A stretch of 64,000 nt of DNA from Candidatus Latescibacterota bacterium (GTDB lineage Bacteria > Latescibacterota > UBA2968 > UBA8231). Positions within the stretch are counted from its first letter, which is position 1. Every line of letters begins with the position of its first letter. The translations under genes were made by a program, and so were the position numbers. Location of the stretch: assembly GCA_965221775.1 (NCBI GenBank), contig CBDCSU010000006.1, forward strand, positions 672,001-736,000, read 5' to 3'. Under the pieces are notes generated by a model. That model saw nothing but the letters and a program-made list of their open reading frames with translations, made no database searches and had not been told where the DNA came from. Shown in pieces: positions 43,836 to 62,048 of this stretch.

Positions 43836-43869
43836 GAGAGGCGGCGGTCCGGTCAGCCGCCGCGCTCTC
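43836..43869 (-). terminator. GC hairpin after microprotein 1
   Basis: GAGAG-GCGGCGG..CCGCCGC-GCTCTC stem; no clear U-tract. Confidence 0.4.
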
Positions 43870-43978
43870 AGGCGGCGAGGGAGAGGGTGGCGTAGTGGGC
43901 GAAGGTGGACAGGCCGGCGAAGCACAGACTGATGGCCACGGGAATGGCGATCTCTCCGGTGATGCGAAGGATCCTCAT
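43868..43978 (-). CDS. Hydrophobic microprotein 1 (36 aa) MRILRITGEIAIPVAISLCFAGLSTFAHYATLSLAA
   Basis: GAGGAGG RBS 5 nt before ATG; sigma54 promoter ~50 nt upstream; motif shared with two paralogs. Confidence 0.8.
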   Translation of the reverse strand: MRILRITGEIAIPVAISLCFAGLSTFAHYATLSLAA

Positions 43979-44025: not shown

Positions 44026-44041
44026 TGCAACCGACGTGCCA
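44026..44041 (-). promoter_or_regulatory. Sigma54 (-24/-12) promoter
   Basis: Minus strand TGGCACG-TCGG-TTGCA, matches the consensus. Confidence 0.88.
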
Positions 44042-44083
44042 GGTCCGTTTCTCGGGGTGGCATGCGCCGAGGCGGACTTCACT

Positions 44084-44124
44084 GGTGACCCGTTTCGCAC
44101 CAGAGGTGTTCACACGTGAACACC
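44084..44124. promoter_or_regulatory. Double-palindrome upstream activator sequence (putative bEBP sites)
   Basis: GGTG-N10-CACC followed by perfect GGTGTTCAC-AC-GTGAACACC (contains TGT-N10-ACA); lies between two divergent sigma54 promoters. Confidence 0.7.
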
Positions 44125-44244
44125 CCTCACGCGCCCGGGCCGGTCGCTGGCCGGCTCCGGCCTGCCCTTTCAGGCCGCCGGCGTCTGAGGTCGCGGGTCA
44201 GGGCCCCTTGTGCGGGCGAGCAGGATCCTGCCAGCCCCGGCGAC

Positions 44245-44259
44245 TGGCACAGGCCTTGC
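44245..44259 (+). promoter_or_regulatory. Sigma54 (-24/-12) promoter
   Basis: TGGCAC-AGGCC-TTGC. Confidence 0.85.
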
Positions 44260-44294
44260 GCACACCTGGACGTCTCGAAGAGAAGGAGGAAGGG

Positions 44295-44414
44295 ATGGTA
44301 CGGACGAAGCTGTTGCAGGACTTGGCGCTGCCAGGTGCCGTGACTCTGAGCTATGCCTACGCCGCCGTCATGGCTTTCACGAGGCTCGGACAGGTGCTCG
44401 AGAACCTGGCCTGA
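44295..44414 (+). CDS. Hydrophobic microprotein 2 (39 aa) MVRTKLLQDLALPGAVTLSYAYAAVMAFTRLGQVLENLA
   Basis: AAGGAGG RBS; sigma54 promoter ~35 nt upstream; DLALPGAVTLSYA aligns with EIAIPVAISLCFA. Confidence 0.75.
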   Translation: MVRTKLLQDLALPGAVTLSYAYAAVMAFTRLGQVLENLA

Positions 44415-44433
44415 ACGCGCGGCCCCGGCGCCG

Positions 44434-45558: not shown

Positions 45559-45562
45559 GGGT

Positions 45563-48733: not shown

Positions 48734-48765
48734 CAGATCACCTCCCTTTTTTTGCGTGGAACAAG

Positions 48766-48872
48766 GAAGGGCAACCCATTCTGCAACATGGGCTGCCCTT
48801 CGGGGTCCGGAAAGGATGCTGCAGTTCGTCCGGTTCGGCCAAGATTGTAGTCCAATGACTTGGGGGACACAA
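48766..48872 (-). promoter_or_regulatory. Sigma70-like promoter and strong 5'-UTR hairpin of the TonB receptor
   Basis: Minus strand TTGTGT-17nt-TACAAT (48872-48844); GAAGGGCAGCCCAT-N8-ATGGGTTGCCCTTC hairpin (48801-48766). Confidence 0.5.
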
Positions 48873-48919
48873 AAAGGGACACGGAGACGATCGGCGAAGG
48901 GCGACCGGCGTCCTGCCGG

Positions 48920-49447
48920 TCAGACCAGCACAATGGCCAGGCCGGCCACCCCGTTCTGGAGAGTGTGGATCGCGGCGGTGACGAAGTAGGCGTGCCCCCA
49001 GGAGCGCGGTCTCCAGGCCAGCCAGGCGGTGGAGAACACCAGGAAGGTCCAGAAGATGCACAGCCCCCAGGCGACGGCGCTGAGGGAGTGCAGGACGGCC
49101 CAGACCGCCGCCGAGGACAGGGCAGCCGGCAGCCGGCGCCCGCCCCACAGGCGCATGAGCAGGGCCAGCAGGGGCGCCATGAGCAGGGTCTCGGCCAAGG
49201 GCGCGAAGAGGACGACCATCAGCAGGAACAGCGCCGGCGACATCCCCCTCAGAGGCGCCATGGGGTCCTCGCCGAGGAAGAGGTCGTGCCCGAGCAACTG
49301 GAACACGATCGACAGGACCAGGGCGATGGCCAGGGTCGGCGCCATGGCCAGCGGCCACGCGCGCAGGACGTAGCGCAAGGGGCCCACGCTGGTGTCGAGC
49401 AAGGGCCAGGCGAGGTTGCGCCAGAGCGGTTCAGCCGGGCGGTCCAT
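48920..49447 (-). CDS. CPBP (CAAX/Abi) family intramembrane glutamic endopeptidase
   Basis: Multi-TM; APLAETLL, WAVLH, IHTLQN motifs. Confidence 0.75.
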   Translation of the reverse strand: MDRPAEPLWRNLAWPLLDTSVGPLRYVLRAWPLAMAPTLAIALVLSIVFQLLGHDLFLGEDPMAPLRGMSPALFLLMVVLFAPLAETLLMAPLLALLMRLWGGRRLPAALSSAAVWAVLHSLSAVAWGLCIFWTFLVFSTAWLAWRPRSWGHAYFVTAAIHTLQNGVAGLAIVLV

Positions 49448-49565
49448 GGCTCGATAGTCGCCGAAGGGAGAGATCCCGGCAAGACGGTTTGCCGCTGCTC
49501 GAGGCGCGCCGGTAGATTGCGGCCCCCCGGAGCGATGCTCCCGGTGTCCCGCAACCGAGTTCCCC

Positions 49566-50597
49566 ATGCCTCCTTCCGAGCCTGCCACTGACTCCCGCCA
49601 GCGGCGCGAGACCGCCGGCCGCCGGCTGCGCGAAGCCGTCTGGCGCGGCGACCGGGCCGCCGTGGCCGCGGCCCTCGACCTGGATGGGTGAGCCGTCGAC
49701 GAGCCCGGGCCCCACCCCCGGTGGGGCGGCCGCCCGGCCCCGCTGCAACTGGCCGCCGAACGAGGACGGCTGGAGATCGCCCGCCTGCTGCTGGAGCGCG
49801 GCGCCGACGTCGAGGGGCCCGTGCAGGGCTACGACTGGAGCCCCCTGCAGCTGGCCGCCCACTGGCGCCGCCGCGAGCTGGCGGAGCTGCTGCTGGCGCA
49901 CGGCGCCCACCTCGACATCGCCGCCGCCGCCCTGCTCGGCGACGCCGCCGCCGTGGCGCGGCTGCTGCATGAGGACCCCGCCCTGGCCACGGCGCCCGCC
50001 CTCGACGGGGCGCCGCCCCTGCATTGCGCGGCCACCCCGCCGGTCGCCAGGCTCCTGCTGGACCGGGGCGCATCCCTGGACAGCGCGTCGATTGCCGCGG
50101 CGGCACGCCGCTGGACGCCGCCCTCGGCCGCGGCCCCCCAGGCCGGTCGGTGGCCGCCCTGCTAGTCGAGCGCGGCGCCCGGCCCGACCCCTGCCACCTG
50201 GCCGCCCTCGGCTGGACCGAGCGGCTGCTGCGCCGCATCGACGCCGATCCCGCGGCCCTCGGCTTCCGCGGCCGCATCGGGGTCAACGAGGTGGTGGGGA
50301 CGCCCCTGCACGCCGCCGTCCACGCGGGGCACGGCGCCCTGGGCGGCGGTCCTCGTCCGGCGCGGCGCCGACGTCGGCGCACGGGCCGACATGGGGCAGA
50401 CGCCCCTGCACCTGTGTGCCACGGCGGGCCTGGCGCGCCTCCTCGTCGAGGCCGGGGCCGACCCGGCGGCGGCGGACGGCGAGCACGGGACCGCGCCCCT
50501 CACGTGGGCCCGCGTCGGCCTGGAGATCCACGGGGACAGCCCGATGCGGCGGCGGCTGGTGGAGTACCTGGAGAGGGTGACGCCGGGGGCCCGCTGA
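49566..50597 (+). pseudogene. Ankyrin-repeat protein, disrupted
   Basis: PLQLAA..G, TPLHAAV, TPLHL, GAD motifs spread over three frames; in-frame TGA 49689-49691; frameshifts near 50081 and 50342. Confidence 0.8.
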
Positions 50598-50610
50598 GGG
50601 GCCCGGGGGA

Positions 50611-51327
50611 CTACAGGCCCGCGGGCAGGAGAACCAGCTCCGGCACCCGCGCCCGTCCCGGCGTGGCGGCCACGTACAGGCAGGCGTCGGCCACGTCCTC
50701 CGGCTGCAGGGCTTTCGCCATGACCTCGGGCGGGGTCGGCGCCGGCCGCTGCAGGACGAGAGGGGTGTCGCACAGGCCGGGGAAGATCACGGTGGTGCGG
50801 ATGCCGTTGTCGCGCTCCTCCTCGAAGGTCCCGTGGGCGAGGCCGGAGAGGCCGCACTTGGTGGCCTGGTAGGCGACCCCCGAGACATCCGGCTTCTGCA
50901 CGCAGCCCGAGGAGAGGTAGATGATCAGCCCCGAGCCCCGGGCGCGCATCGCCGGCAGCACCGCCTGGGTGCAGTGGAAGGCGCCGGTGAGATTGGTGGC
51001 GATCATGTCGTTCCAGGTCTGGCGGGACAGGACCTGCAGGCTGCGCTCCGGGATGTTGGTCCCCGTGGCGTAGAGGAGGATGTCGATGCGGCCGAAGGCG
51101 TCGAGAGCGGTGCGGACGAGGCCGTCCACCTGGGCCGGATCGGTCGCGTCGGCGGGACAGGCCAGGGCGCCGTCGCCGATCTCGGCGGCCAGCGCCTCCA
51201 GCTCGCCGGCGCTGCGCGCGGCCAGCACCACCTTCGCCCCGGCTCCGGCATAGGCCCGCGCCGCCGCCCTCCCCATCCCCGAGCTGCTGCCCACGACCAC
51301 CGCCACCCGGCCGCTCAGTGCCGCCAT
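50611..51327 (-). CDS. Short-chain dehydrogenase/reductase
   Basis: GSSSGMG, NLTG, YQATK, PG..DT. Confidence 0.92.
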   Translation of the reverse strand: MAALSGRVAVVVGSSSGMGRAAARAYAGAGAKVVLAARSAGELEALAAEIGDGALACPADATDPAQVDGLVRTALDAFGRIDILLYATGTNIPERSLQVLSRQTWNDMIATNLTGAFHCTQAVLPAMRARGSGLIIYLSSGCVQKPDVSGVAYQATKCGLSGLAHGTFEEERDNGIRTTVIFPGLCDTPLVLQRPAPTPPEVMAKALQPEDVADACLYVAATPGRARVPELVLLPAGL

Positions 51328-51441
51328 CGTCTCTCCTCCTTGCGGCCGGCGCGCGAACCTGCGGCCCTGGCGTGCCCGCCGCCGGCAACCCACACGTGGC
51401 CCGACATGGTCACCCGCGAGTCGACGGCGGCGTCCGACACG

Positions 51442-52656
51442 TCAGCGGACGTTGTAGTAGGTGGCGTAGAAGTCACGGCTCTCGCAACGCACCCAGTCGC
51501 GGTCGCGGCCCCTCTCGCCGAAGCGCCCGAGACCGAACTCCGCCAGGTCCTCCCCCGGGTCGCCGTCGAGCACCCAGCCCGCGAGCCAGCGGCCCACCGC
51601 GGCGGAGCCGGCAATGCCGAGGGCGGCGCAGGCCGAGGCCACGAAGAGCCCCTCCACCGCCGGCACCGGCCCGAGCAGGTAGCTGCCGTCGGGGGCGAAG
51701 GAGGTGACCCCCTGGCAGTACTCGGCCACCTCCAGCCCGGGCAGGGACGGGAAGAGCGGGGCCAGCCGGTCCGCGGCCTCGGCGATGGTGCCGCGCGGCT
51801 CGGGCAGGTCGGAGGTGCGGAAGCCCTCGTCCAGATCGACGAGATGCGGGTCCGGCTCGAAGAAGCCGTAGAGGTAGCCGCCGCGCTCCGGGCGGACGTA
51901 GCAGCTCGCCTCGGTGACGCGGACCACCGGGTGGTCGGCGGAGATGCCGGCGGCGGCGGTGCGGGCGCGCTGATGGCGGATCGTCTGCAGGGGCAGCTCA
52001 TCGGCGCCGAAGCGGCGCAGGAGCCGGCTGCTCCAGGGGCCGGCGGTGAGGACCACGCGATCGGCGGCGATCGTTCCGGCGGCGGTGCGCACGCCGCGCA
52101 CGGCGCCGCCGTCGACATCGAGACCCGCCACCTCGGCGGAGCACTCGATGCGGACCCCCAGGTCGCGGGCGGCGGCGGCGTAGGCGCGGGCGCACCGGCC
52201 GGGGTCGACGTAGCCGTCGCCGGTGACGTAACAGCCGCCCTCGAGGCGGGATACGTCCATGCCGGGGCACAGCCGCTCCATCTCGCCGCGGGAGACGAAG
52301 GCGGCCTCGACGCCGCTGGCCCGGGCGCGCTCGATCAGGCCTTCGTAGGCGGCCATCCGCTCCGGCGTCAGGGCCGCGAGCAGGCTCCCCGGCCGGCGCA
52401 GGCCCGGGTCGTGGCCGGACCGCTCGCCGAAGCCGGAGAGCAGGTCGAGGGCGTAGCGGATCGCCCGGCACATGGCCGCCGAGCTGCGCACCTGGCCTAC
52501 GAGACCAGCGGCGCGGGGCGTGGTCTCGGCCGCTACTTCGGGATTGCGCTCGAGAACGCGAACGGTTCCCGCGCCGCGCTCGGCCAGGTGCCAAGCCGTG
52601 CTGAGGCCCCAGATGCCGCCGCCGACGATGATGATGGTTTCCGTGTCGCTGCTCAT
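51442..52656 (-). CDS. FAD-dependent oxidoreductase, DAO/sarcosine-dimethylglycine oxidase family
   Basis: IVGGGIWG, TT.RAAG, DGYVDP, TAGPWS, SFAPDG..LG. Confidence 0.88.
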   Translation of the reverse strand: MSSDTETIIIVGGGIWGLSTAWHLAERGAGTVRVLERNPEVAAETTPRAAGLVGQVRSSAAMCRAIRYALDLLSGFGERSGHDPGLRRPGSLLAALTPERMAAYEGLIERARASGVEAAFVSRGEMERLCPGMDVSRLEGGCYVTGDGYVDPGRCARAYAAAARDLGVRIECSAEVAGLDVDGGAVRGVRTAAGTIAADRVVLTAGPWSSRLLRRFGADELPLQTIRHQRARTAAAGISADHPVVRVTEASCYVRPERGGYLYGFFEPDPHLVDLDEGFRTSDLPEPRGTIAEAADRLAPLFPSLPGLEVAEYCQGVTSFAPDGSYLLGPVPAVEGLFVASACAALGIAGSAAVGRWLAGWVLDGDPGEDLAEFGLGRFGERGRDRDWVRCESRDFYATYYNVR

Positions 52657-52743
52657 GGCGGAAGACTACCTTGGCAGGAGCCTGGAGGCAATCGGCCTTG
52701 CCTCTCCAGCGCCGGCTCCCTCTCTCGATGGGAGACACAGACG

Positions 52744-55700
52744 ATGAAAGATCAACTACGACATCGATCACGCTCCCTGGCCCTGGCCGGGCTCATCCTG
52801 GCTGCGATACCGGCCGCGGATGCTTCACCCCCCCAGTCTGCCGGCGGGCATGCCCCTTTCAGCCGGGTCGTCTACGACGGGGAATCCGGCCAGGCCCCCT
52901 CCGCTTCCAAGGCGGCGGCCCTGAAGGACTGGCCGCAGCGCACCGTGAGGATGATCTACTTCCGGCCCGAGGACCGCCCCTTCCGCGCCGAGGTGGTCGA
53001 TTCGATGAAGGCTGCCATCGTGCAGATCCAGGCCTTCTTCGCGCAGCAGATGCGGGAGCACGGGCATGGGGACGTGACATTCCAGTATGAGACCGACGCT
53101 CAGGGGGAGCCGCTCGTCCACCGTGTGGTTGGAGAGCATGCCGACGAGCACTATATCGAGCAAGGGGGAGCCGTGCAGGAGGTTTCACAAGCCGTCCTCA
53201 GGGGAGGACGGGACATCGACCTTGTCGTCATCGACCAGAGCTCGCCTGTACTGCCTTCCCCCAGTGGAGGCGCAGGAGGCCTGGCCTTCATCGGACAGGT
53301 GAATCGTCAACCCTTCGGGACGGCCCTGGTCCCGGCCTCGGCCCACTGGACCACGGCTGCCCACGAGCTCGGCCATGTCTTTGGACTGGACCACGACTTC
53401 AGGGATGGCACGTACATCATGTCCTACGGTTTCCAGTCCCCGCTTCGCCTGTCCGCATGCAGCGCCGGGCTCCTGACCGTGCATCCCTACTTCAACCCCG
53501 ATGTCCCCGGGGCGCCGGGTCCGCCGACGACGACCATCGACTTCACCTCCCCTCCCGGCTATCGGGCCGGTTCGAGCAGCCACCCCGTGCGACTCACCGT
53601 CGGTGGCTCGGCGGGGCTCCACCAGGTGCTTTTCGTCGGAGCCACAAACCCCCCCCACTTCGCTGCCGGATCCCTCGAAGTACTGGGGTGCCGCTCCTAC
53701 TCGGGGGAGAGCGCGGCGGATGTCGAGTTCGACTACGACGGCGCCGTTCCGTCCGAGCCCCTCACGAGTCTCTCGGATCCCGTCGTTCACCCCCTTGGCG
53801 TGCGGGCCGTCGACCAATACGGCAGATGGGTCGTAGAGGGCTTCGTCGTGCATCAGCTCTCCCCCCTGCATATCGGCTCGCTGGAAGAGCCCGGGGCGGT
53901 CTCTGCCCTGGCCTTCGCCCCGGTGGGCACCTCGGTGGCCGCGGCGGGGGACCCCCTCTTCGGGCTCTGGGACGTGCAGACGCGGCAGATGGTGGCCAGC
54001 TTCGGAGAGGCCCCCGCAGCGTCGGTGGCGTTCTCGCCGGACGGCGCCACCCTGGCCACCGCGGCGTACGACGGCAAGGTCAGGCTGTGGGACGTGTCCG
54101 CGCGAACGATCACCAGCACCCTGGAAGGTCGGTCGCGATTCGCCGCCTCCCTGGCCTTCTCCCCCGATGGCGCCACCCTGGCCGCCGTGTCATCGAGGAG
54201 CACGGTCACCCTCTGGGACCTGGAGACGGAGACGGAGACCGCGGTCCTCAGTCATGATGCCCCGGTCTCCTTCGTGGCCTTCTCTCCCGACGGCTCCACC
54301 ATCGCCACCGCCACATGGAGTCCCCGGGTCCACCTCTGGGACGCAGCCGGGACCCACCTGGCCGTCCTCGCCGGACACGGGGAGTGGACCAACGGGCTGA
54401 CCTTCTCCCCCGACGGCGCCACCCTGGCCGCCTCGGGGACGGACGGTCTCGTCAAGCTCTGGGACGTGGCGGCCCGAAGGGATGTCGCCGACCTCGAGCA
54501 CAGGCGGATCGTCAGGTCCATGGCGTTCTCTCCCGACGGCGCCACCCTCGCCTGCGCCTCGGGATACATCGTCAGGCTCTGGGACGCGGGGACGCGGCTT
54601 CGGATCGACGTCCTCCCAGACGGCCAGTTCGCCGAGGCCGTCGACTTCTCCGCCGATGGCCGGACCCTGGTCTCCGGGACCCGGAAGGGGCTCGAGTTGT
54701 GGGATGCCTCGGAGTGGCTGCAGCCTCGGCCCCATGGGCTGGTGATGATCTCGGGAGACGGACAGGAAGGGGCTCCCGGCGCCGTCCTCGAGGATCCCCT
54801 GGTGGTGGAAGTGCAGGATCAGTACGGGGTCGCCATGGCGGGACAACCCGTCGTGTTCACCGTCGCCCAGGGCGATGGAAGGCTGGGCGGCAGGTTCACC
54901 ATGGAGAACACGGAGACCGATGCCAACGGCCGTGCGGAGAGCCGCCTCACCCTCGCCCCCGGCCCGGGAGCGGTCACCGTCGAGGCGAGGCTCTTCGGGT
55001 CAGATCCCGTGGTCTTCGGAGCCGCCGCCATCGGGGAACCTCCCGTCGGGGATGGAGATCCTCTCAAGTGGCACCTGCCCGACCGCGCGACGGCGCGCCT
55101 GGGCAAGGGCGCCACGGGACTGGGATTCGGCTCTCCCGTGGCCTTTACCCCCGATGGCCAACGCTTCGCCGTGGCCACCAGCATCGGCATCTGGGTCTAT
55201 GATTCGACGACCGCCCGTGAGCTCGCCCTGATAGCCGGTGCCTCGGCGACCACCCTGGCCTTCTCCGCCGACGGGACCACCCTCGCCGCCGGAGCGGGTG
55301 GGACGATCAGGCTGTGGGACGTGGCCAGTGGTGAGAGCAGGGCCAGTCTGAGAGGACATGACTCGGTATGGTCGGTGGCCTTCTCTCCCGACGGCAGCAT
55401 GCTCGCCTCCGCCTCCGGGACCATGGTCAAGCTGTGGGACGTGGCGACGCGCCAGAACACGGCCACTCTCGACGGGCTTGGCGGCACGGTGATGTTCCTC
55501 CACGGCGGCGCCACCGTCGGCGTCCTGGGCTGGGATGGCATCCTGAAGCTGTGGGATGCCACCAGCGAACCGATCCGGTCGCTCTTCGAGGTGCAACTCG
55601 GATGGGGTCCGTCCACGTCCTTCCCCATGACCCAGATGGCCTTCTCCCCCGATGGTGTCACCCTCGCCGCCGGTTGGGGAGACACGATCAGGCTGTGGGA

Positions 55701-58020
55701 CGTCGCGGCGGGAACCTCCCTCCCTTCTCTGGACAATGAGACCGGCATAACCTCGGTGGCCTTCTCTCCGCAGGGCACGACCCTGGCCGTCGGCTCACTA
55801 GGTGAGATCAAGCTGTGGGACGTGGCGGCGGGGAGCATCGTCACCACCTTCGAGGTACGGACAGGCTGGATGGGCCACCTGGTCTTTTCCTCTGACGGGT
55901 CCACCCTTGCCTCGGCATCGTCGAACACGATCACCCTGTGGGACCTGGCGTCCGGGACAGAGCTCGCCACCGTCGATCACTCCACCGAGGTCTATCCCGT
56001 GGAGTTCTCTCCGGGCGATGCCTCCCTCGTCGTCAGGTCGTCGGACGGCGTCCTGCTCCTGGAGGTCTCCACCGCGAATCTCGCCCGCCTTCGGGGCCAT
56101 ACGCACGCGACCGGAGTCAATTCCGTGGCCTTTTCCCGGGATGGCGCCACCCTCGCCACCGGTTCGATCTTCGTTGCAAACGTGTGGGACATCGTCACCG
56201 GGAGAAGCGTGGCCACCGCCACTCATCCAGCCGAGGTCAGCGCCGTGGCCTTTTCCCCCGTTGACGACGTTCTCGCCTTTGGCTCCTATGACGACACAAT
56301 CAGGCTGTGGGATGTCGAGAGGCGCGGCGACATCGCCAGCCTCGCAGGAGGGTTCGACGGCGTCATCTCTCTGGCCTTCTCCCCGGACGGAGCTACTCTC
56401 GCCGCGGGATACCAGGAGGGCATCGTCAACCTGTGGGATGTGGCCAGGACCCAGGCCCGGCTTGCCCTCGAGGGACACATGAGCGGGGTGCGGTCCGTGG
56501 CCTTCTCCCCCGATGGCGCCACCCTCGCTACCGGCTCCGTGGACGAAACCCTCCGGCTGTGGGATGTGGAGACGGGGACGGAGACCGCCCTTCTCGAAGG
56601 CCACGACGGTTGGGTCAATTCCGTGGCCTTTTCCCGGGACGGAACCCTCGCCGCCGCATGGGGGCCCACCGTCCGGGTATGGGATGCGGGGACCTGGGAA
56701 GAGGCCGCCGATCCCATGAGGCTTGGGGGTTGGGGCTATGCCGTAGCCTTTTCCCCCGATGGCACCAAACTCGCCGCCGGTTCCGGGAACACCGTTCTGC
56801 TGAGAGAGACCGGGACCTGGAGATCGCTCGCTACCTTCGATGGGCACACGGAGAGGATCAATTCCCTGGCCTTCTCACCCCATGGCGCCACCCTTGCCAG
56901 CGGCTCCCGGGACGGCACCGTTCTGCTGTGGGACATCGCCCCGGAGCCCCAGGCTCTGAGGAGGGTTTCGGGCGACCGCCAGGAGGGGCTCCCGGGGGCG
57001 CTCCTGGCCGACTCCCTCGTCGTCGAGGTGCGCGACCAGTATGGGGACCTGCTGGAAGGGGCCCAGGTGAATTTCGCGGTGACCAGGGGAGATGGAACCT
57101 TGACCGCGGCTACCGTGATCACGGATTCCATGGGGAGGGCCGCCACCTTCCTGACCTTGGGGAGCCGACAAGGCCGCAACACCGTGACGGCAACCGTGGC
57201 GGACGTCTGGCCGGTGACTTTCCGGGCCACCGGGCTGCCCATTCCCGGGGCTCTGATCAGACTCTCCGGAGAGGAGCTGGAAGGGCCGGCCGGCTCCGCC
57301 CTGGCCGAACCGTTCGTCGTCGAGGTCAGAGACCAGGTCGGCTCCCCATTGGCAGGGGCCGTGGTCACCTTTTCCGTCACCGGCGGCGGAGGGACGCTCT
57401 CCGCTGCCACCGACACCACGGATGCCGACGGCCGGGCCGCCACCAACCTGACCCTGGGCGAGGAACTGGGGGCCAACTCCGTCGAGGCAACCGTAGCCGG
57501 ACTCGAGCCGGTGACCTTCACGGCCACGGCCAGGGCTACCCCCGACTTCGACGGCGACGGCGAGGTCGGCTTCGACGACTTCTTCCTCTTCGCCGAGGCC
57601 TGGGGAGACAGCGACCCCCGCTTCGACCTGGACGGCAGCGGCTCGGTGGACTTCGCCGACTTCTTCCTCTTCGCCGAGAGCTTCGCCCAGCCGGCGCGGG
57701 CCAAGCTCATGGCCCTCGCCCGCGAACGGATCGGACTTCCCGATGGCCCCCAGCTGGGTCAGAACTGGCCCAATCCCTTCAACAGCGAGACCGTCCTCTC
57801 CTGGTTCGTGCTGCAGCCGGGGCCGGCGCGCCTGGAGGTGTTCGCCCTCACCGGGCAGCGGGTCGCGGTCCTGGCCTCGGGACACCACGAGGCCGGCCTC
57901 CACCGCCTCCACTGGGACGGGCGCGACCACCAGGGACGGCCCCTGGCCAGCGGCACCTACCTCTACCGGCTGGTCACCGCCCAGGAGGTATGGGCGCGCA
58001 AGCTGGTCCTGATCCGCTGA
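52744..58020 (+). CDS. Secreted metzincin-like protease with WD40 propellers, 3 Ig-like domains, EF-hand/dockerin-like and FlgD-Ig domains (1758 aa)
   Basis: Start MKDQLR with signal peptide; AHELGHVFGLDH..YIMSY; ~20 AFSPDG..LA..LWD repeats; VVEV.DQ.G x3; DFDGDGEVGFDDF; NWPNPFNS. Confidence 0.87.
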   Translation: MKDQLRHRSRSLALAGLILAAIPAADASPPQSAGGHAPFSRVVYDGESGQAPSASKAAALKDWPQRTVRMIYFRPEDRPFRAEVVDSMKAAIVQIQAFFAQQMREHGHGDVTFQYETDAQGEPLVHRVVGEHADEHYIEQGGAVQEVSQAVLRGGRDIDLVVIDQSSPVLPSPSGGAGGLAFIGQVNRQPFGTALVPASAHWTTAAHELGHVFGLDHDFRDGTYIMSYGFQSPLRLSACSAGLLTVHPYFNPDVPGAPGPPTTTIDFTSPPGYRAGSSSHPVRLTVGGSAGLHQVLFVGATNPPHFAAGSLEVLGCRSYSGESAADVEFDYDGAVPSEPLTSLSDPVVHPLGVRAVDQYGRWVVEGFVVHQLSPLHIGSLEEPGAVSALAFAPVGTSVAAAGDPLFGLWDVQTRQMVASFGEAPAASVAFSPDGATLATAAYDGKVRLWDVSARTITSTLEGRSRFAASLAFSPDGATLAAVSSRSTVTLWDLETETETAVLSHDAPVSFVAFSPDGSTIATATWSPRVHLWDAAGTHLAVLAGHGEWTNGLTFSPDGATLAASGTDGLVKLWDVAARRDVADLEHRRIVRSMAFSPDGATLACASGYIVRLWDAGTRLRIDVLPDGQFAEAVDFSADGRTLVSGTRKGLELWDASEWLQPRPHGLVMISGDGQEGAPGAVLEDPLVVEVQDQYGVAMAGQPVVFTVAQGDGRLGGRFTMENTETDANGRAESRLTLAPGPGAVTVEARLFGSDPVVFGAAAIGEPPVGDGDPLKWHLPDRATARLGKGATGLGFGSPVAFTPDGQRFAVATSIGIWVYDSTTARELALIAGASATTLAFSADGTTLAAGAGGTIRLWDVASGESRASLRGHDSVWSVAFSPDGSMLASASGTMVKLWDVATRQNTATLDGLGGTVMFLHGGATVGVLGWDGILKLWDATSEPIRSLFEVQLGWGPSTSFPMTQMAFSPDGVTLAAGWGDTIRLWDVAAGTSLPSLDNETGITSVAFSPQGTTLAVGSLGEIKLWDVAAGSIVTTFEVRTGWMGHLVFSSDGSTLASASSNTITLWDLASGTELATVDHSTEVYPVEFSPGDASLVVRSSDGVLLLEVSTANLARLRGHTHATGVNSVAFSRDGATLATGSIFVANVWDIVTGRSVATATHPAEVSAVAFSPVDDVLAFGSYDDTIRLWDVERRGDIASLAGGFDGVISLAFSPDGATLAAGYQEGIVNLWDVARTQARLALEGHMSGVRSVAFSPDGATLATGSVDETLRLWDVETGTETALLEGHDGWVNSVAFSRDGTLAAAWGPTVRVWDAGTWEEAADPMRLGGWGYAVAFSPDGTKLAAGSGNTVLLRETGTWRSLATFDGHTERINSLAFSPHGATLASGSRDGTVLLWDIAPEPQALRRVSGDRQEGLPGALLADSLVVEVRDQYGDLLEGAQVNFAVTRGDGTLTAATVITDSMGRAATFLTLGSRQGRNTVTATVADVWPVTFRATGLPIPGALIRLSGEELEGPAGSALAEPFVVEVRDQVGSPLAGAVVTFSVTGGGGTLSAATDTTDADGRAATNLTLGEELGANSVEATVAGLEPVTFTATARATPDFDGDGEVGFDDFFLFAEAWGDSDPRFDLDGSGSVDFADFFLFAESFAQPARAKLMALARERIGLPDGPQLGQNWPNPFNSETVLSWFVLQPGPARLEVFALTGQRVAVLASGHHEAGLHRLHWDGRDHQGRPLASGTYLYRLVTAQEVWARKLVLIR
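53860..56940 (+). repeat. WD40 coding repeats in two blocks (~53860-54720 and ~55080-56940)
   Basis: Recurrent GCCTTCTCCCCCGATGGCGCCACCCTCGCC and CTGTGGGAC units. Confidence 0.85.
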
Positions 58021-58030
58021 GGAGCATCCC

Positions 58031-58939
58031 ATGGCAGGGATCGAACCCTTCGCCGTCTCCAACGAACTCCTGGAACACCCGGGCCGCCTTCAGGAGCGGG
58101 CACGCCAGGACGGCTACCTCTTCTTCCGGGGCCTGATCGACGCCGATTCCGTCCTCGGCCTGCGCCGCGACTTCCTGGAGATCTGCCACCGCCACGGATG
58201 GGCCCGGGGCGGCGGGGCGCTGATGGACGGCATCGCCGCCGGCGGCCCCTTCGTGGAGGGCGACGACGGCTACTGGCCGGTGCTGGACGAGTTCCAGCGC
58301 CTGGAATCGTTCCACGCCTTCGCCCACCACCCGGCGATCCTGGAAATGTGCGACACGCTCTTCGGCGAGAGGACGCTCGTCCATCCGCGCAACATCGGGC
58401 GGATCATGTTCCCGGCGAACGCCAGCTACACGACGCCGGCGCACCAGGATTACATCCATATCCGGGGAACGCCGGAAACGTATACCGCGTGGATCCCCCT
58501 CGGCGCCTGTCCACGGGAGCTGGGCGGACTTGCGGTGCTCGCGGGATCGCACAAGGGCGGGCTGTACCCGGTGGAGCCGGCCCTCGGCGCCGGCAAGGTC
58601 GGCATCGACACGGCGCCCCTGGAGGCGCAGGGACTGCGCTGGGCGGCGGCGGACTTCGCCATCGGCGATGCCCTGTTCTTTCACAGCCACGCCGTGCACA
58701 AGGCCCTGCCGAACCGCAGTCCCGACCGGATCCGCCTCTCGGTGGACTACCGCTACCAGGGTTCCTCGCAGCCGGTCACCGAGGGATCGCTGCTGCCGCA
58801 CTTCAACCGCATGGCCTGGGACGAGATCTATGCCGGCTGGCAATCGACGAAGCACCAGTACTACTGGAACGCCTTCGACCTCGACACCGTCCCGCACCCC
58901 GGAACATCCGCCGCGGCGCGGGCGTCGGCGAAGGGATGA
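58031..58939 (+). CDS. Phytanoyl-CoA dioxygenase family protein
   Basis: [38 protein letters not shown]. Confidence 0.88.
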
Positions 58940-58958
58940 CACAACAGGAGGCGATACG

Positions 58959-60017
58959 ATGAGACGGATCTTGATGGTGCTGCTGGCGGCGCTGCCGGCG
59001 GCCGCCGGCGCCGGGGAAACGGCCAGGGCCACCTTTGCCGGCGGCTGCTTCTGGTGCCTGGAGCCGCCCTTCGAGAAGCTGGAGGGGGTGAGTGCCGTCG
59101 TCTCCGGGTACATCGGCGGCCCGGAGTTGAACCCCACGTACCGCGAGGTGGCCGGGGGCAAGACCGGGCACCTCGAGGCGGTGCAGGTCACCTTCGACCC
59201 GGAGACGATCAGCTACGAGCGGCTCCTCGAGGTCTACTGGATGCAGTTCGACCCCACCGACGCCGGCGGCTCCTTCGTCGACCGCGGGCACCAGTACACC
59301 TCGGCGATCTTCGTCCACGACGAGGAGCAGCGGCGGCTGGCCGAAGCCTCGAAGTCGGACCTGGCCGCCTCGGGCCGCTTCGAGGACCCCATCGTCACCC
59401 CGGTGCGCGACGCCGACGTGTTCTACCCGGCCGAGGAGTACCACCAGGACTTCTACCGCAAGGACCCGTCCCACTACAAGCGCTACCGCTCCGGCTCCGG
59501 GCGCGACGAGTTCATCCGCGCCCACTGGGGCGGCGGCGGCGGGACCGGGACGCGCTACCTCAAGCCGCCGGAGAAGAAGCTGCGCCGCCGCCTGACCCGC
59601 CTCCAGTACGAGGTCACCCAGGAGGAGGGCACCGAGCCGCCCTTCCGCAACGAGTTCTGGGACAACAAGAAGGAGGGGATCTACGTCGACATCGTCTCCG
59701 GCGAGCCCCTCTTCCTCTCCGTCGACAAGTACGTCTCGGGCACCGGGTGGCCGAGCTTCACGCGCCCCCTGGTGGCGGAGAACATCGTCGAGAAGAGGGA
59801 CTTCAAGCTGTTCTACCCGCGCACCGAGGTGCGCAGCAAGCACGGCGACTCGCACCTGGGCCACCTCTTCGACGACGGACCCGAGCCCACGGGGCTGCGC
59901 TACTGCATCAACTCGGCGGCCCTGCGCTTCGTCCCGCGGGAGGAGATGGAGGCGGCCGGGTACGGCGAGTACCTCGCCCGCTTCGAGGCGAAGGCGCAGG
60001 CGGGAGAGAGCCCGTGA
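58959..60017 (+). CDS. msrAB: Exported bifunctional methionine sulfoxide reductase MsrA/MsrB
   Basis: Signal peptide; [15 protein letters not shown] (MsrA); [24 protein letters not shown] (MsrB). Confidence 0.95.
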
Positions 60018-60589
60018 CCCGGGACGAAGCCCTCGCCCTGATGCACGAGCACACGGCGTCGGAGCCCCTGCGCCGGCACATGTACGCCGTGGAGACCGCC
60101 ATGCGCGCCTGCGCCCGCCGCCTGGGCGAGGACGAGGAGGCCTGGGCCACCGTGGGCCTGCTCCACGACTTCGACTACGAGGCCCACCCCAACGAGGCGC
60201 GCTCCCCCACCGAGGGGCACCCGGCCTTCGGCGTGGCCCTGCTGCGCGAGCGCGGCTACCCCGAGCCCCTGTGCCGGGCGATCCTCGGACACGCCACCTA
60301 CAGCGGCGTGCCGCGGGACACGCCCGTGGCCCGGGCGCTGTTCGCCGTGGACGAGTTGTGCGGCTTCCTCGTGGCCTGCGCCCTCGTGCGGCCGTCGAAG
60401 AGCCTCGCCGACCTGGGCGTGCGCAGCGTCCGCAAGAAGCTCAAGGACCGCGGCTTCGCCCGCGCCGTCGACCGCGGCGAGATCCGCCAGGGGGCCGAGG
60501 AGTTCGGGGTGGATCTGGACGAGCACATCGACTTCGTCATCCAGGCGCTGCGTCCCGAGGAAGGGCGCCTGGGGCTCGGCCCCGGCTGA
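60014..60589 (+). CDS. HD-domain (HDIG) protein
   Basis: [42 protein letters not shown]. Confidence 0.85.
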
Positions 60590-60605
60590 AGCGGTGCCGA
60601 GCCCC
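60571..60605. terminator. Hairpin at the convergent HD gene / microprotein 3 junction
   Basis: GGGGCTCGGC..GCCGAGCCCC 10-bp stem. Confidence 0.4.
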
Positions 60606-60612
60606 TCGCTGA

Positions 60613-60696
60613 TCAGGCGCCGAAAAAGAACGGGCCGAGGAAGCAGACGACGATGGCGAAGGGAGCGGCGATCTCGGCGGGGCGGAAGGTCTGCAT
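60613..60696 (-). CDS. Hydrophobic microprotein 3 (27 aa) MQTFRPAEIAAPFAIVVCFLGPFFFGA
   Basis: AAGGAGG RBS 5 nt before ATG; sigma54 promoter 45 nt upstream; EIAAPFAIVVCFLG vs EIAIPVAISLCFAG of microprotein 1. Confidence 0.8.
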   Translation of the reverse strand: MQTFRPAEIAAPFAIVVCFLGPFFFGA

Positions 60697-60740
60697 GACA
60701 TCCTCCTTCGGAACGGTGGTGAGTTGTCGCCCTCACCACC

Positions 60741-60755
60741 GCAAGCGCCGTGCCA
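60741..60755 (-). promoter_or_regulatory. Sigma54 (-24/-12) promoter
   Basis: Minus strand TGGCACG-GCGC-TTGC. Confidence 0.88.
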
Positions 60756-60796
60756 GACCCGTTCTCCCGGGGACCGCTCCGGCCACGCGAGTCAGA

Positions 60797-60836
60797 GGTG
60801 GCCGTCTCCGCACACGGGTGTCCGTTGGCGGACGCC
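60797..60836. promoter_or_regulatory. Double-palindrome upstream activator sequence matching 44084-44124
   Basis: GGTG-N10-CAC followed by GGTGTCCG-TTGG-CGGACGCC. Confidence 0.68.
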
Positions 60837-60840
60837 CGCC

Positions 60841-61992
60841 TCAGGGCAGCGCCTCGATAAGCCGGCTCACGTCTTCCTGATTGTTGTAGACCGAGGGCGA
60901 CAGCCTCAGCTTGTCGCCGAAGCGCATGGCCACGTGCACGCCGGCCTCGCGGGTGCGCCGCACGGCCGCCTCCGGGTCGGGGGTGACGAAGGCGAGGATG
61001 GGGCTCTCGTTGCCGCGCGGCGTGATCGGCCGGTAACCCTTGGCGGGCAGCTCCTCCTGCAGGCGGTCGGTGAGGCCGCGCACGTGGCCGCGGATGTTCT
61101 CCACCCCCAGGTCGAGGATGTAGCGCAGGCTCTGCTGGGCGGCGATCACGCCCTCGTAGGAGGGATAGCTCACCTCCCAGGCCGTGGCGTCGTCCCGGGT
61201 CATGACGCTGACCTCGGGGCGCCCGCTCTCCGCGTCCCTCCAGGGCGGGTAGTTGAGGCGGACCGAGCCCGAGGGCTGCGACGCCTTGACCACCGTGTGC
61301 TGCAGGTCCCGCCGCACGTAGAGGAAGCCGAAGCCCTTCACCCCCATGAGCCACTTGAAGGTCGAGCAGGCGGCCATGTCGATGCCCATGGCGCCCACGT
61401 CGATGGGCACGGCGCCGACGGCCTGCATGATGTCGGCGTAGAGGTAGGCGCCGCGGGCGTGGGCCAGCTCGCTCAGGGCGGCCACGTCGGCAAGCAAGCC
61501 GTTGACGTTGGAGACCAGGGCCACCGAAACCAGCCGCGTGTCCTTGTCGATGGCGGCGGCCATGGCATCCATGTCGATGCGCCAGTCGCGGTTGCGCACG
61601 ATCCGCACCTCCAGGCCGGCGGCCTCCCTCACTTTGTAGTTGCAGAGGCATGCCGAGAAAGCCAGGTCGTTGGTAACGATGTTGCCGCCGGCGAGGTGAT
61701 CGGCCATGCCGTTGAGCACGTTGCTCTCGGCCTCCACGGTGCTGCGGGCGAAGGCGATCTCCCCCGGGTCGGCGTGGATCAGCCGCGCGAAGAGGTGGCG
61801 CGCCTCGTCGCGGGGCGGCGCCCAGTCCGGCCACCAGGGATCGCCCACGTTGTGGGTGACCCAGTCGACGTAGCGGTGCAGGGCCGCGGAGGTGTGGACG
61901 CTGACGGGGTGGGAGGAGGCGTTGTCGAAGTAGGCGGCGGTGCGCGCCCGGGGGAAGTCGGCGCGCACGCGATCGAAGTCGGGAGTGGTCAC
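60841..61992 (-). CDS. Class V PLP-dependent aminotransferase-fold enzyme
   Basis: YFDNAS, ADIMQAVGA, CSTFKWLMG (PLP Lys), RLSPSVYN. Confidence 0.85.
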   Translation of the reverse strand: MTTPDFDRVRADFPRARTAAYFDNASSHPVSVHTSAALHRYVDWVTHNVGDPWWPDWAPPRDEARHLFARLIHADPGEIAFARSTVEAESNVLNGMADHLAGGNIVTNDLAFSACLCNYKVREAAGLEVRIVRNRDWRIDMDAMAAAIDKDTRLVSVALVSNVNGLLADVAALSELAHARGAYLYADIMQAVGAVPIDVGAMGIDMAACSTFKWLMGVKGFGFLYVRRDLQHTVVKASQPSGSVRLNYPPWRDAESGRPEVSVMTRDDATAWEVSYPSYEGVIAAQQSLRYILDLGVENIRGHVRGLTDRLQEELPAKGYRPITPRGNESPILAFVTPDPEAAVRRTREAGVHVAMRFGDKLRLSPSVYNNQEDVSRLIEALP

Positions 61993-62048
61993 GGGATGGA
62001 CCTCCGGCGGGCCGGGGTTATCTTCCCCGCCGTCTCGGGGAGAGAGGT

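What the first reader, a model, noticed from the sequence alone, without database searches (positions are those of the whole stretch)
60613..60836. Third, dispersed member of the same microprotein cassette 16 kb away
Seen: between the HD gene and the class V aminotransferase, the minus strand has the same layout of enhancer-like palindromes, TGGCACGGCGCTTGC, AAGGAGG, MQTFRPAEIAAPFAIVVCFLGPFFFGA and a hairpin. Its core EIAAPFAIVVCFLG matches microprotein 1 EIAIPVAISLCFAG at 9 of 14 positions while the tails differ completely. Inference: three copies in 64 kb among unrelated neighbours suggest a genome-wide paralogous family with a conserved core (leader/anchor) and variable C-terminus, as in signalling-peptide or RiPP-like precursors. 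The independent recurrence makes chance unlikely.
Basis: partly seen in the sequence, partly recalled or inferred. Interest (0 to 1): 0.88.

Follow-up and report, generated by a model that had tools for sequence, protein, structure and literature searches.

The report
Sigma-54-driven membrane microprotein gene family
This is a real 27-residue gene, one of four related tiny membrane-protein genes in the genome, each with its own sigma-54 promoter and enhancer, which look co-regulated with a drug- or peptide-efflux system rather than being signalling-peptide precursors.

Summary
At window 60613-60836 (minus strand) there are two enhancer-like palindromes, a perfect TGGCAC-N5-TTGC sigma-54 promoter, AAGGAGG, a 27-codon ORF and a hairpin. 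The peptide is a significant paralogue of the two microproteins at 43.9-44.4 kb.

The family has exactly four members in this 5.36 Mb genome (classes A-D). Three are in the window and one lies 266 kb away. I found 17 distinct cassettes in five closely related genomes. All 17 keep the -24/-12 promoter and a GGAGG ribosome-binding site.

Nothing comparable turned up elsewhere: 127 other genomes of the class gave only one weak possible relative, and DNA-pattern scans of about 185,000 species genomes and 241 million metagenome records gave no further member. No member carries a name or a Pfam/NCBIfam family.

Phylogenetic footprinting gives a shared enhancer, TGT(C/T)CG-N4-CG(G/A)ACA, usually in tandem at -80 and -60. 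The same site with a sigma-54 promoter precedes a HlyD-ABC operon, MacB/FtsX permease genes and a 64-aa HTH-like gene. These lie beside an NtrC-type activator and an intramembrane-type histidine kinase.

My best reading is that these are single-pass membrane microproteins of an envelope-stress/efflux regulon, similar in role to VraH, AcrZ or MgrB. The RiPP/signal-peptide reading is not supported. The function is inferred, not shown.

The parts
60613..60696 (-). Class C microprotein gene (27 codons plus TGA): MQTFRPAEIAAPFAIVVCFLGPFFFGA
   Evidence: ORF. Orthologues of 28-29 aa in G002, G004, G006 and G007. Among the three 28-aa orthologues, 12 synonymous and 0 non-synonymous codon differences. 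An in-frame CGG insertion behind 60674 in run X12.
60702..60708 (-). Shine-Dalgarno AAGGAGG, 5 nt before the ATG
   Evidence: A GGAGG-type SD is kept in all 17 cassettes.
60715..60740 (-). Conserved box/hairpin GGTGGTGAGGGCGACAACTCACCACC straddling the predicted transcription start (unexplained)
   Evidence: The box AGGGCG-N3-5-ACTCAC is kept in classes A, B and C and in a fifth sigma-54 gene at C5:1130766. Position relative to +1 is inferred from the usual sigma-54 geometry.
60741..60755 (-). Sigma-54 promoter TGGCACGGCGCTTGC (-24 GG / -12 GC)
   Evidence: Conserved in all class C orthologues. An rpoN gene and 15 full bEBP genes are present.
60799..60814 (.). Enhancer site 2 (TGTGCGGAGACGGCCA on the minus strand; 2 mismatches to TGTCCG-N4-CGGACA), at -59 from TGGCAC
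60819..60834 (.). Enhancer site 1 (CGTCCGCCAACGGACA on the minus strand; 1 mismatch), at -79 from TGGCAC
   Evidence: Footprint conserved in 5 of 5 class C orthologues and perfect in G006.
60571..60605 (.). GC-rich hairpin (10-bp stem) shared with the convergent HD-domain gene; probable bidirectional terminator without a T-run
   Evidence: Stem kept in orthologues.
43868..43978 (-). Class A microprotein gene (36 codons plus stop): MRILRITGEIAIPVAISLCFAGLSTFAHYATLSLAA
44027..44041 (-). Sigma-54 promoter of class A (TGGCACGTCGGTTGC)
44107..44122 (.). Palindrome TGTTCACACGTGAACA between the divergent class A and class D genes (variant of the enhancer; TGTTCG-N4-CGAACA in G002 and G007)
44245..44259 (+). 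Sigma-54 promoter of class D (TGGCACAGGCCTTGC)
44295..44414 (+). Class D microprotein gene (39 codons plus stop): MVRTKLLQDLALPGAVTLSYAYAAVMAFTRLGQVLENLA

Best explanation
Window 60613-60696 (minus) is a translated gene for a 27-residue single-pass membrane microprotein. It has a basic N-terminus, presumably cytoplasmic, and an EIAxP-led hydrophobic helix.

It is one of four paralogues (classes A-D). Each is a monocistronic cassette of tandem enhancer sites, a sigma-54 promoter, a strong SD, the microORF and a hairpin. Sigma-54 promoters are silent without an ATP-dependent activator, so all four genes should be switched on together by one enhancer-binding protein that recognises TGT(C/T)CG-N4-CG(G/A)ACA.

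The most likely activator is the NtrC-type response regulator at C6:2124899-2126281, which is paired with a histidine kinase that has two transmembrane helices joined by a 6-residue outer loop (an intramembrane-sensing type). The same enhancer-plus-sigma-54 arrangement drives its neighbouring HlyD-ABC operon, MacB/FtsX permease genes, a 64-aa Fis-type HTH-like gene and a 150-aa secreted protein.

I therefore read the microproteins as induced membrane components of an envelope-stress / ABC-efflux response. They most probably act as small accessory or regulatory subunits that bind the permeases or the kinase, as VraH does with VraDE, AcrZ with AcrB and MgrB with PhoQ.

What is shown: anatomy, paralogy, conservation, coding signature and the shared enhancer motif. 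What is inferred: sigma-54 dependence in vivo, the identity of the activator, membrane insertion and the binding partners.
For: Coding and paralogy:
- 4 of 4 genome-wide motif hits are small ORFs behind strict sigma-54 promoters.
- Pairwise scores exceed 5000 shuffles for A-B, A-C, B-C and B-D.
- 17 of 17 distinct cassettes in 5 genomes keep TGG[CT]A[CT]-N5-TTGC 50-64 nt (108-109 nt in two) before the ATG, plus a GGAGG SD.
- Class C orthologues differ at 12 synonymous and 0 non-synonymous codons. An in-frame 3-nt indel variant exists.

Membrane character: GRAVY 0.72-1.24, with best 15-residue windows of 1.43-2.29. Pro13 is invariant and R/K residues sit in the first 8 positions.

Sigma-54 machinery: rpoN is present and so are 15 full bEBPs.

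Shared enhancer:
- Footprints are conserved across orthologues.
- 13 of 17 cassettes have a site with at most 2 mismatches within 250 bp upstream, typically a pair at -80 and -60.
- In the genome there are 22 sites with at most 1 mismatch. Four of them, plus two 2-mismatch sites, lie within 260 bp upstream of a sigma-54-type promoter at 5 promoters: class B, class C, the HTH gene, the 150-aa protein and the HlyD operon. A fifth 1-mismatch site, at the first permease gene, has a TGGCGC-N5-TTGC promoter that the regex missed.

Link to the two-component system and transporters:
- The palindrome lies at -105 of the HlyD promoter, divergent from the bEBP, in 5 of 5 genomes.
- A perfect palindrome plus a sigma-54 promoter precedes a MacB-like permease in G007.
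- In G000 a 1-mismatch palindrome and a TGGCGC-N5-TTGC promoter precede the first gene of an 11-paralogue MacB_PCD/FtsX array 5-34 kb from the two-component system.
- In G006 the class C gene, PspA, the kinase, the bEBP and the HlyD operon lie within 7 kb.

[quoted passage not shown] MgrB, AcrZ and KdpF are covered in PMC12648545. Sigma-54 control of FtsX-like permeases is proposed in PMC12316311.
Against: - No experiment or strand-specific RNA data exist. The only RNA-library support is one 175-nt contig over 60506-60680, which also covers the end of the convergent HD gene and could derive from DNA.
- The assignment to this particular bEBP rests on one 1-mismatch palindrome beside its gene and on proximity in one genome.
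- The 5-of-5 co-occurrence of the bEBP orthologue with the microproteins is uninformative, because two control bEBPs show the same distribution.
- 4 of 17 cassettes lack a site with at most 2 mismatches. Among them, the G000 class A/D pair carries only a 4-mismatch variant (TGTTCA...TGAACA).
- In G002 the class D gene lies 3 kb from a different bEBP.
- The palindrome is GC-rich and about 16 of its 22 near-matches in the genome are not at sigma-54 promoters.
- Membrane insertion and topology are judged from hydrophobicity alone.
- Nothing shows binding to any partner.
- The genes are not next to the transporter genes in G000, G002 or G007.
Confidence: 0.5

Rival explanations
1. Exported peptides (signal, bacteriocin-like or RiPP precursors). 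The conserved N-terminal part would be a leader, the part after the ...CF/YAG motif the core, and the co-regulated HlyD-ABC/MacB system the exporter, with the two-component system closing an autoinduction loop.
For: The N-terminal 21-22 residues are conserved and the C-terminal length varies between classes. The inferred regulon contains HlyD, ABC ATPase and MacB/FtsX genes and a two-component system. Peptide plus exporter plus two-component system is the layout of Gram-positive pheromone and bacteriocin loci (recalled, not from a call).
Against: No gene with a RiPP-enzyme or peptidase family match adjoins the cassettes whose neighbours I scanned, though several neighbours had no Pfam match. 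I did not see a C39 peptidase domain on the transporter proteins I scanned. There is no double-glycine or AxA cleavage motif. The 'leader' is itself the most hydrophobic segment. The tails are conserved within classes and shared between A and B. Class C would leave a 6-residue 'core'.
Confidence: 0.12
2. Stress-induced membrane-active toxic peptides, of the type I toxin or TisB/DinQ kind. These would be small hydrophobic peptides kept silent by the activator-dependent sigma-54 promoter, which depolarise the membrane when the stress regulon fires.
For: Size (27-39 aa), hydrophobicity, monocistronic genes with tight promoters and a structured or conserved 5' leader. Small hydrophobic toxins embedded in stress regulons are known (recalled).
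Against: I did not look for an antisense RNA or antitoxin partner and none was found. Rfam finds nothing in 43000-62000. The fold energy of the transcript is no better than shuffles (z = -0.74). Four anciently diverged paralogues are each retained in the near-complete genomes (4 in G000, G002 and G007; 3 in G006), which fits distinct partners better than redundant toxins.
Confidence: 0.12
3. Members of the phage-shock (PspF/PspA) regulon: small effectors co-induced with PspA, like PspG.
For: Both PspA genes of G000 also have strict sigma-54 promoters. In G006 the class C gene lies about 300 bp upstream of the PspA promoter.
Against: The PspA promoters carry a different enhancer, GGCGG-N5-CCGCC repeats, in G000 and G006. 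The microprotein cassettes do not carry it. The adjacency is seen in 1 of 5 genomes only.
Confidence: 0.06
4. Not protein-coding: sigma-54-dependent small RNAs, or chance ORFs in GC-rich intergenic DNA.
For: High-GC genomes carry many spurious ORFs. There are no proteomic data.
Against: SD and ATG are conserved at fixed spacing in 17 of 17 cassettes. The amino-acid motif is kept across paralogues whose DNA has diverged. Class C shows 12 synonymous against 0 non-synonymous differences. Indels are in frame.
Confidence: 0.03

Closest known systems
[quoted passage not shown]
   Same: A small single-pass membrane protein co-regulated with an FtsX/MacB-type ABC transporter. The kinase has two transmembrane helices and almost no outer loop. 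Passages read in PMC5786555; the kinase here is read.
   Different: VraH is encoded inside the transporter operon, whereas these are four dispersed monocistronic genes. The regulator here is a sigma-54 activator, not an OmpR-type regulator. The host here has HlyD-type adaptor genes (Gram-negative-type envelope). There is no sequence similarity and no conserved C-terminal basic motif. Binding is untested.
AcrZ and KdpF (Escherichia coli small membrane subunits of AcrAB-TolC and KdpABC)
   Same: 29-49 aa single-helix proteins that bind a transporter and are expressed with it (review passages, PMC12648545).
   Different: Different promoters, no homology, single genes rather than a four-member paralogous family. 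The partner here is unknown.
MgrB (47 aa inhibitor of the PhoQ kinase, induced by PhoP)
   Same: A monocistronic small membrane protein gene inside the regulon of a two-component system. It gives a possible feedback logic (PMC12648545).
   Different: MgrB acts partly through periplasmic cysteines and the PhoQ periplasmic domain. The kinase here has no such domain. The single Cys here is not invariant (Gly or Ser in some members). There is no homology.
Psp regulon small effectors (PspG and related; recalled, not from a call)
   Same: Sigma-54 and enhancer-dependent expression of small inner-membrane proteins under envelope stress.
   Different: Different enhancer from the PspA genes of the same genome. 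The microproteins are shorter with a single helix and show no homology.
Double-glycine-leader peptides and RiPP precursors
   Same: Short ORFs with a conserved N-terminal part and a more variable C-terminal part, and a possible exporter in the same regulon.
   Different: No cleavage motif, no adjacent gene with a modification-enzyme family match, and the conserved part is the hydrophobic helix.

Membership tests
Sigma-54-dependent gene (enhancer-dependent promoter) | -24 GG / -12 GC elements with TGGCAC-N5-TTGC spacing at the right distance upstream of the gene | tested here: met
   Exact consensus at 60741-60755. Kept in 17 of 17 cassettes.
Sigma-54-dependent gene (enhancer-dependent promoter) | rpoN and bEBP genes present in the genome | tested here: met
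   PF04552 hit at C5:573778-574254. 15 full PF00158 domains.
Sigma-54-dependent gene (enhancer-dependent promoter) | Upstream activator sites, conserved and palindromic, about 80-150 bp from the promoter | tested here: met
   Tandem TGTCCG-N4-CGGACA-like sites at -79 and -59, footprinted in 5 of 5 class C orthologues.
Sigma-54-dependent gene (enhancer-dependent promoter) | Transcription abolished without sigma-54 or the activator | not testable with these tools
   Needs genetics or in vitro transcription.
Small single-pass membrane protein (VraH/AcrZ/MgrB kind) | Under about 50 aa with one hydrophobic span long enough to cross the membrane, and positive charges on one side | tested here: met
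   27-39 aa. 15-residue hydropathy maxima 1.43-2.29. R/K within the first 8 residues. Hydrophobicity only; no topology predictor was available.
Small single-pass membrane protein (VraH/AcrZ/MgrB kind) | Co-regulation with the partner (transporter or kinase) | tested here: inconclusive
   The same enhancer type plus a sigma-54 promoter is found at the HlyD-ABC operon and MacB/FtsX permease genes. This is motif-based inference only.
Small single-pass membrane protein (VraH/AcrZ/MgrB kind) | Physical binding to the partner | not tested
   One complex prediction gave no verdict (see Tried and rejected). There are no experimental data.
RiPP or double-glycine leader peptide precursor | Adjacent modifying enzyme, leader peptidase or C39-peptidase ABC exporter | tested here: not met
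   Neighbours are an aminotransferase V, an HD protein, a PhyH-family protein (58031-58939), an M6/BNR protein, a 374-aa protein with no family match, and (by my reading of the translation, not Pfam-scanned) a TonB-type receptor. The class B neighbours are a metallophosphatase and a 546-aa protein with no family match. The transporter proteins scanned show no peptidase domain.
RiPP or double-glycine leader peptide precursor | Recognisable leader cleavage motif (GG/GA/GS after a conserved leader) | tested here: not met
   The alignment shows ...C[FY]AG in A and B...CFLG in C and no equivalent in D. There is no double-glycine consensus; that consensus is recalled, not from a call.
Type I toxin | Overlapping or adjacent antisense RNA antitoxin | not tested
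   No Rfam family in 43000-62000. No dedicated antisense promoter search was made.
Known protein families (Pfam, NCBIfam) | Profile match | tested here: not met
   0 families at E up to 10 for classes A, C and D. Atlas best score for class B is 0.82, below the lead threshold.

The most novel reading that the evidence does not exclude
A bacterial enhancer-binding protein whose regulon is made up largely of dispersed, monocistronic microprotein genes. Four paralogous one-helix peptides would each plug into a different member of an expanded MacB/FtsX permease array (11 paralogues in this genome), or into the loop-less sensor kinase. They would tune the substrate range or the signalling of an antimicrobial-peptide/xenobiotic efflux response in a sponge-associated bacterium. 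This would be a combinatorial 'microprotein adaptor' layer for ABC transporters that has not been described.
Probability: 0.2. Interest if true: 0.7.

Novelty: new member of a known kind. Interest (0 to 1): 0.45.

Why it matters
Small membrane proteins are routinely missed by annotation. Here 15 of 1.84 billion representative proteins match the family profile, and none of the 12 related clusters for which names are recorded carries a name or a Pfam family.

This case gives an unusually clean, sequence-defined regulon: four microprotein genes, each with a textbook sigma-54 promoter and a footprinted enhancer, tied by motif to an intramembrane-type two-component system and an expanded MacB/FtsX efflux array.

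If the link holds, three things follow:
- the VraH/AcrZ/MgrB principle extends to sigma-54 regulons and to a poorly studied, sponge-associated lineage;
- ready-made reporter targets become available (enhancer, promoter, activator);
- 'sigma-54 promoter plus SD plus microORF' becomes a workable search key for hidden small proteins.

If the link does not hold, it remains an ordinary lineage-specific small-protein family.

Tried and rejected
- Pfam and NCBIfam scans of classes A, C and D found nothing. The ESM Atlas search for class B gave a best score of 0.82 among unnamed clusters, which is not a lead. Rfam on 43000-62000 gave only two sub-threshold chance hits elsewhere.
- RNA fold of the predicted class C transcript: the terminator hairpin is clear, but the overall energy is not better than shuffles (z = -0.74). 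I make no riboswitch or leader-structure claim.
- The conserved box AGGGCG-N3-5-ACTCAC on its own is common in this GC-rich genome (84 hits). It is informative only next to a sigma-54 promoter, and its role is unexplained.
- Complex prediction of the kinase N-terminus (residues 1-120, two copies) with the class A microprotein gave 'no answer', score 0.00 in two runs. This is neither for nor against binding.
- Co-occurrence of the candidate bEBP with the family is rejected as evidence. Two control bEBPs have high-identity orthologues in exactly the same five genomes. The other five 'same genus' genomes are simply distant.
- Weak profile hits outside the clade: G045 and G095 look like chance, lying inside other frames with no SD and no promoter. 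G131 (MSRMIHTVREVAVPAAIF...) may be a distant relative but has no sigma-54 promoter.
- DNA-pattern scans:
  - Genome contigs gave 14 loci. Nine are true members, all in four MAG records titled Gemmatimonadaceae or Candidatus Latescibacterota. Three are chance hits, and two (L057, L069) were not recovered by my re-scan and were not examined.
  - Metagenome contigs gave 20 loci. My re-scan recovered 14, none of them a member; 6 were not recovered and not examined.
  - The pattern is strict at the DNA level, so diverged relatives would be missed.
- Sequencing runs: 17 of 24 listed runs hold at least half of the sampled words, mostly sponge and marine metagenomes. The two RNA runs hold small shares. 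Parts of the window without RNA contigs say nothing.
- Of the 15 representative-library hits I fetched 13. The two long proteins (1270 and 2649 aa, multi-stretch hits) were not examined.
Supplementary files of papers were not consulted. No paper I searched mentions this family. That is four term sets only, so it is not proof of absence.
Full report
**Observation.**
- two palindrome-like sites (60819-60834 and 60799-60814);
- TGGCACGGCGCTTGC (60741-60755);
- AAGGAGG (60702-60708), 5 nt before the ATG;
- a 27-codon ORF (60613-60696) encoding MQTFRPAEIAAPFAIVVCFLGPFFFGA;
- a 10-bp GC-rich hairpin (60571-60605).

The gene sits between a class V aminotransferase on the same strand upstream and a convergent HD-domain gene. 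TGGCAC-N5-TTGC occurs three times in the window against 0.08 expected, and 0 of 100 shuffles reach three. Each occurrence precedes one of the three microORFs.

**Is it a family?**
The genome is 5.36 Mb, about 70% G+C, in six contigs, and the window is C6:672001-736000. It has 15 strict TGGCAC-N5-TTGC sites. By my own arithmetic from base composition, roughly 7-10 would be expected by chance anywhere in the genome, so the bare count means little. What matters is where the sites lie.
- Four of them precede small hydrophobic ORFs. A six-frame search for [ED][IL]AxPxx[IVL]xx[CS][FY]x[GY] finds exactly those four and nothing else.
- The fourth copy (class B, MKRFRFVREIAVPAAIVSCYAGLSAFSHYASVILARSA) is at C6:998593-998706.
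- A relaxed scan gave 253 sigma-54-like sites, of which 9 are followed by an SD and an ORF of 15-70 aa. It adds no further family member.
- Pairwise local alignment scores beat all 5000 composition-preserving shuffles for A-B, A-C, B-C and B-D. For A-D, 9 of 5000 shuffles reach the score. C-D alone is not significant, with 377 of 5000.

So copy 3 is a true paralogue. Class D is joined to the family through B and through its shared cassette layout.

**Conservation.**
Peptide and profile searches of related genomes find the family in G000, G002, G004, G006 and G007. It is not found in five other genomes placed in the same genus. Among the 122 genomes outside the genus there are only three weak hits. 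Two of these weak hits look like chance, and one (G131) may be a distant relative without a sigma-54 promoter.

I recovered 17 distinct cassettes. Every one has TGG[CT]A[CT]-N5-TTGC 50-64 nt before the ATG (108-109 nt in two) and a GGAGG-type SD. The three 28-residue class C orthologues differ at 12 codons, all synonymous. Length variants are in frame. These are the marks of translated genes.

A profile search of 1.84 billion representative proteins returns 15 hits at E up to 0.001. I inspected 13 of them and all fall in the four classes, several with wrongly extended N-termini. A word-indexed search returns 12 proteins with no name and no Pfam domain. Pfam, NCBIfam and the ESM Atlas give nothing.

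A strict DNA pattern for the cassette finds only this clade among about 185,000 species genomes. Nine true hits lie in four MAG records titled Gemmatimonadaceae or Candidatus Latescibacterota. Of the 20 metagenome loci that matched the pattern, my re-scan recovered 14 and none is a member; the other 6 were not examined. Near-identical DNA is held mostly by sponge and marine metagenome runs. A sponge-metagenome contig covers 59226-61200 with 21 differences.

**What the peptides look like.**
All have one or more R/K residues in the first eight positions. Then comes an acidic residue and an invariant proline (E/D-I/L-A-x-P), followed by a hydrophobic stretch that runs to or near the C-terminus. 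GRAVY is 0.72-1.24, and the best 15-residue windows are 1.43-2.29. The cysteine is replaced by Gly or Ser in some members, so a lipobox or a redox role is unlikely. No signal-peptidase or double-glycine motif is evident. I read them as single-pass membrane microproteins with the N-terminus inside. That topology is an inference.

**Regulation.**
rpoN and 15 complete bEBP genes are present. Alignment of orthologous upstream regions shows islands of conservation. They fit the palindrome TGT(C/T)CG-N4-CG(G/A)ACA and typically occur as two sites 20 bp apart, at about -80 and -60 from the TGGCAC. 13 of 17 cassettes have a site with at most 2 mismatches. The G000 class A/D pair shares a more diverged palindrome (TGTTCA-N4-TGAACA, 44107-44122) between the two divergent promoters.

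In the whole genome there are 22 sites with at most 1 mismatch (1 perfect). Four of them, plus two 2-mismatch sites, lie just upstream of sigma-54 promoters, at five promoters:
- class B;
- class C;
- a 64-aa gene whose product aligns with the Fis-type HTH of a bEBP (E = 0.004);
- a 150-aa secreted protein with no family match;
- a HlyD-family adaptor plus ABC ATPase operon.

A fifth 1-mismatch site precedes the first MacB/FtsX permease gene, whose TGGCGC-N5-TTGC promoter the scan's regex missed (described below).

That last operon is divergent from an NtrC-type response regulator (receiver, sigma-54 AAA+, HTH_8). The regulator is followed by a histidine kinase whose two N-terminal hydrophobic helices are joined by only six residues.

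The palindrome at -105 of the HlyD promoter is kept in all five genomes. In G007 a perfect palindrome and a sigma-54 promoter precede a MacB-like permease. In G000 an array of 11 MacB_PCD/FtsX permease paralogues with an ABC ATPase lies 5-34 kb from the two-component system. Its first gene has a 1-mismatch palindrome and a TGGCGC-N5-TTGC promoter.

In G006 the order within 7 kb is as follows:
1. the HTH-like gene;
2. enhancer, sigma-54 promoter and the class C microprotein;
3. a separate enhancer and sigma-54 promoter driving PspA and a TM2-domain protein, followed by two more genes;
4. the kinase and the bEBP on the opposite strand;
5. enhancer, sigma-54 promoter and HlyD.

The PspA promoters use a different enhancer (GGCGG-N5-CCGCC repeats), so the microproteins are not simply Psp regulon members.

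**Limits of the regulator assignment.**
High-identity orthologues of the candidate bEBP occur in exactly the five genomes that have the family. Two control bEBPs behave identically, so this carries no weight. The assignment rests on the shared motif beside the bEBP gene and on the G006 neighbourhood. In G002 the class D gene lies 3 kb from a different bEBP. I put the probability that this bEBP is the activator at about 0.5-0.6.

**Mechanism proposed.**
Envelope or efflux-related stress is sensed within the membrane by the loop-less kinase, possibly through the transporter, as in Bce-type modules (passages in PMC5786555). The phosphorylated NtrC-type activator then assembles on the tandem sites and remodels sigma-54 holoenzyme at all the cassettes. 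The cell thereby makes HlyD, ABC and MacB/FtsX components and four one-helix peptides together.

By analogy with VraH (the third component of VraDE) and with AcrZ, KdpF and MgrB (passages in PMC12648545), the peptides most likely bind the permeases or the kinase and tune their activity. Retention of all four diverged classes in the near-complete genomes fits distinct partners. A recent comparative study also proposes sigma-54 control of FtsX-like permeases (one passage read in PMC12316311). None of the binding steps is shown. One complex prediction returned no verdict (see Tried and rejected).

**Expression.**
One 175-nt contig from a metatranscriptomic library covers 60506-60680 with four differences. 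It spans the hairpin, the end of the convergent HD gene and most of the microORF. Its strand cannot be told and DNA carry-over is possible, so it is only a weak hint.

**Comparison and novelty.**
The kind is known: a small membrane protein inside a two-component stress or efflux regulon. This family is new, in that it is unnamed, matches no profile and is restricted to one clade. The arrangement is also unusual: four dispersed monocistronic sigma-54 cassettes sharing one enhancer type. I file it as a new member of a known kind, with moderate interest.

The RiPP/signal-peptide reading is not supported, but export cannot be excluded because the inferred regulon contains exporters.

Noticed in passing
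G000 C5:978550-978840 (locus L039:4484-4678, minus); orthologues in L094, L095, L102 and L044:5978-6169: A 63-64 aa gene sits behind the only perfect TGTCCG-N4-CGGACA palindrome in the genome and a strict sigma-54 promoter. Its product aligns with the C-terminal Fis-type HTH of the bEBP (E = 0.004). The perfect palindrome and the same promoter recur in G002, G006 and G007; the ORF itself was read in G006 (two copies) and G000 only. It could be a stand-alone DNA-binding domain that feeds back on the same enhancer.
   Followed up: partly
G000 C6:2132846-2160118 (locus L109 covers part): Array of 11 paralogous MacB_PCD+FtsX permease genes (about 780 aa each, domains duplicated) with an ABC ATPase, 5-34 kb from the two-component system. 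The first gene has the palindrome and a TGGCGC-N5-TTGC promoter.
   Followed up: partly
G000 C4:263679(+), C5:50087(-); G006 locus L044:6669-7469: Two PspA/IM30 genes with strict sigma-54 promoters and their own enhancer of GGCGG-N5-CCGCC repeats. In G006, PspA is followed by a TM2-domain protein.
   Followed up: partly
G000 C4:914098(+): A strict TGGCAC-N5-TTGC lies about 55-75 nt upstream of a GroES-like ORF (MAKSKIQPLADRVLVKRL...). This may be a sigma-54-dependent chaperonin operon, or a chance site.
   Followed up: no
window 60715-60740 and equivalents in classes A and B; G000 C5:1130745: Conserved box AGGGCG-N3-5-ACTCAC straddling the predicted transcription start. It forms a hairpin in classes B and C but pairing is not consistently kept. 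Its function is unknown.
   Followed up: partly
G000 C5:1130260-1130767 (locus L040:4259-4711, minus): A 150-aa protein with a signal-peptide-like N-terminus and no Pfam match. It lies behind a strict sigma-54 promoter, the same 5' box and a 2-mismatch palindrome, so it is probably a fifth small member of the regulon.
   Followed up: partly
window 50833-58020 (+) and 38963-43786 (-): A 2395-aa protein packed with WD40/beta-propeller repeats, and a 1607-aa protein with M6-peptidase-like, BNR/sortilin and C-terminal FlgD_ig-like domains.
   Followed up: no
G000 C6:2120878-2122116 (locus L038:1878-3116, minus): A 412-aa secreted protein with a Beta-lactamase2 family match (E = 3e-12) lies downstream of the HlyD-ABC operon on the same strand, after a 480-bp gap. 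Whether it belongs to the operon is unknown.
   Followed up: no
window 60400-61000 (runs X5-X17): Near-identical DNA is held mostly by sponge and marine metagenome runs from several studies, so the lineage appears to be sponge-associated.
   Followed up: partly
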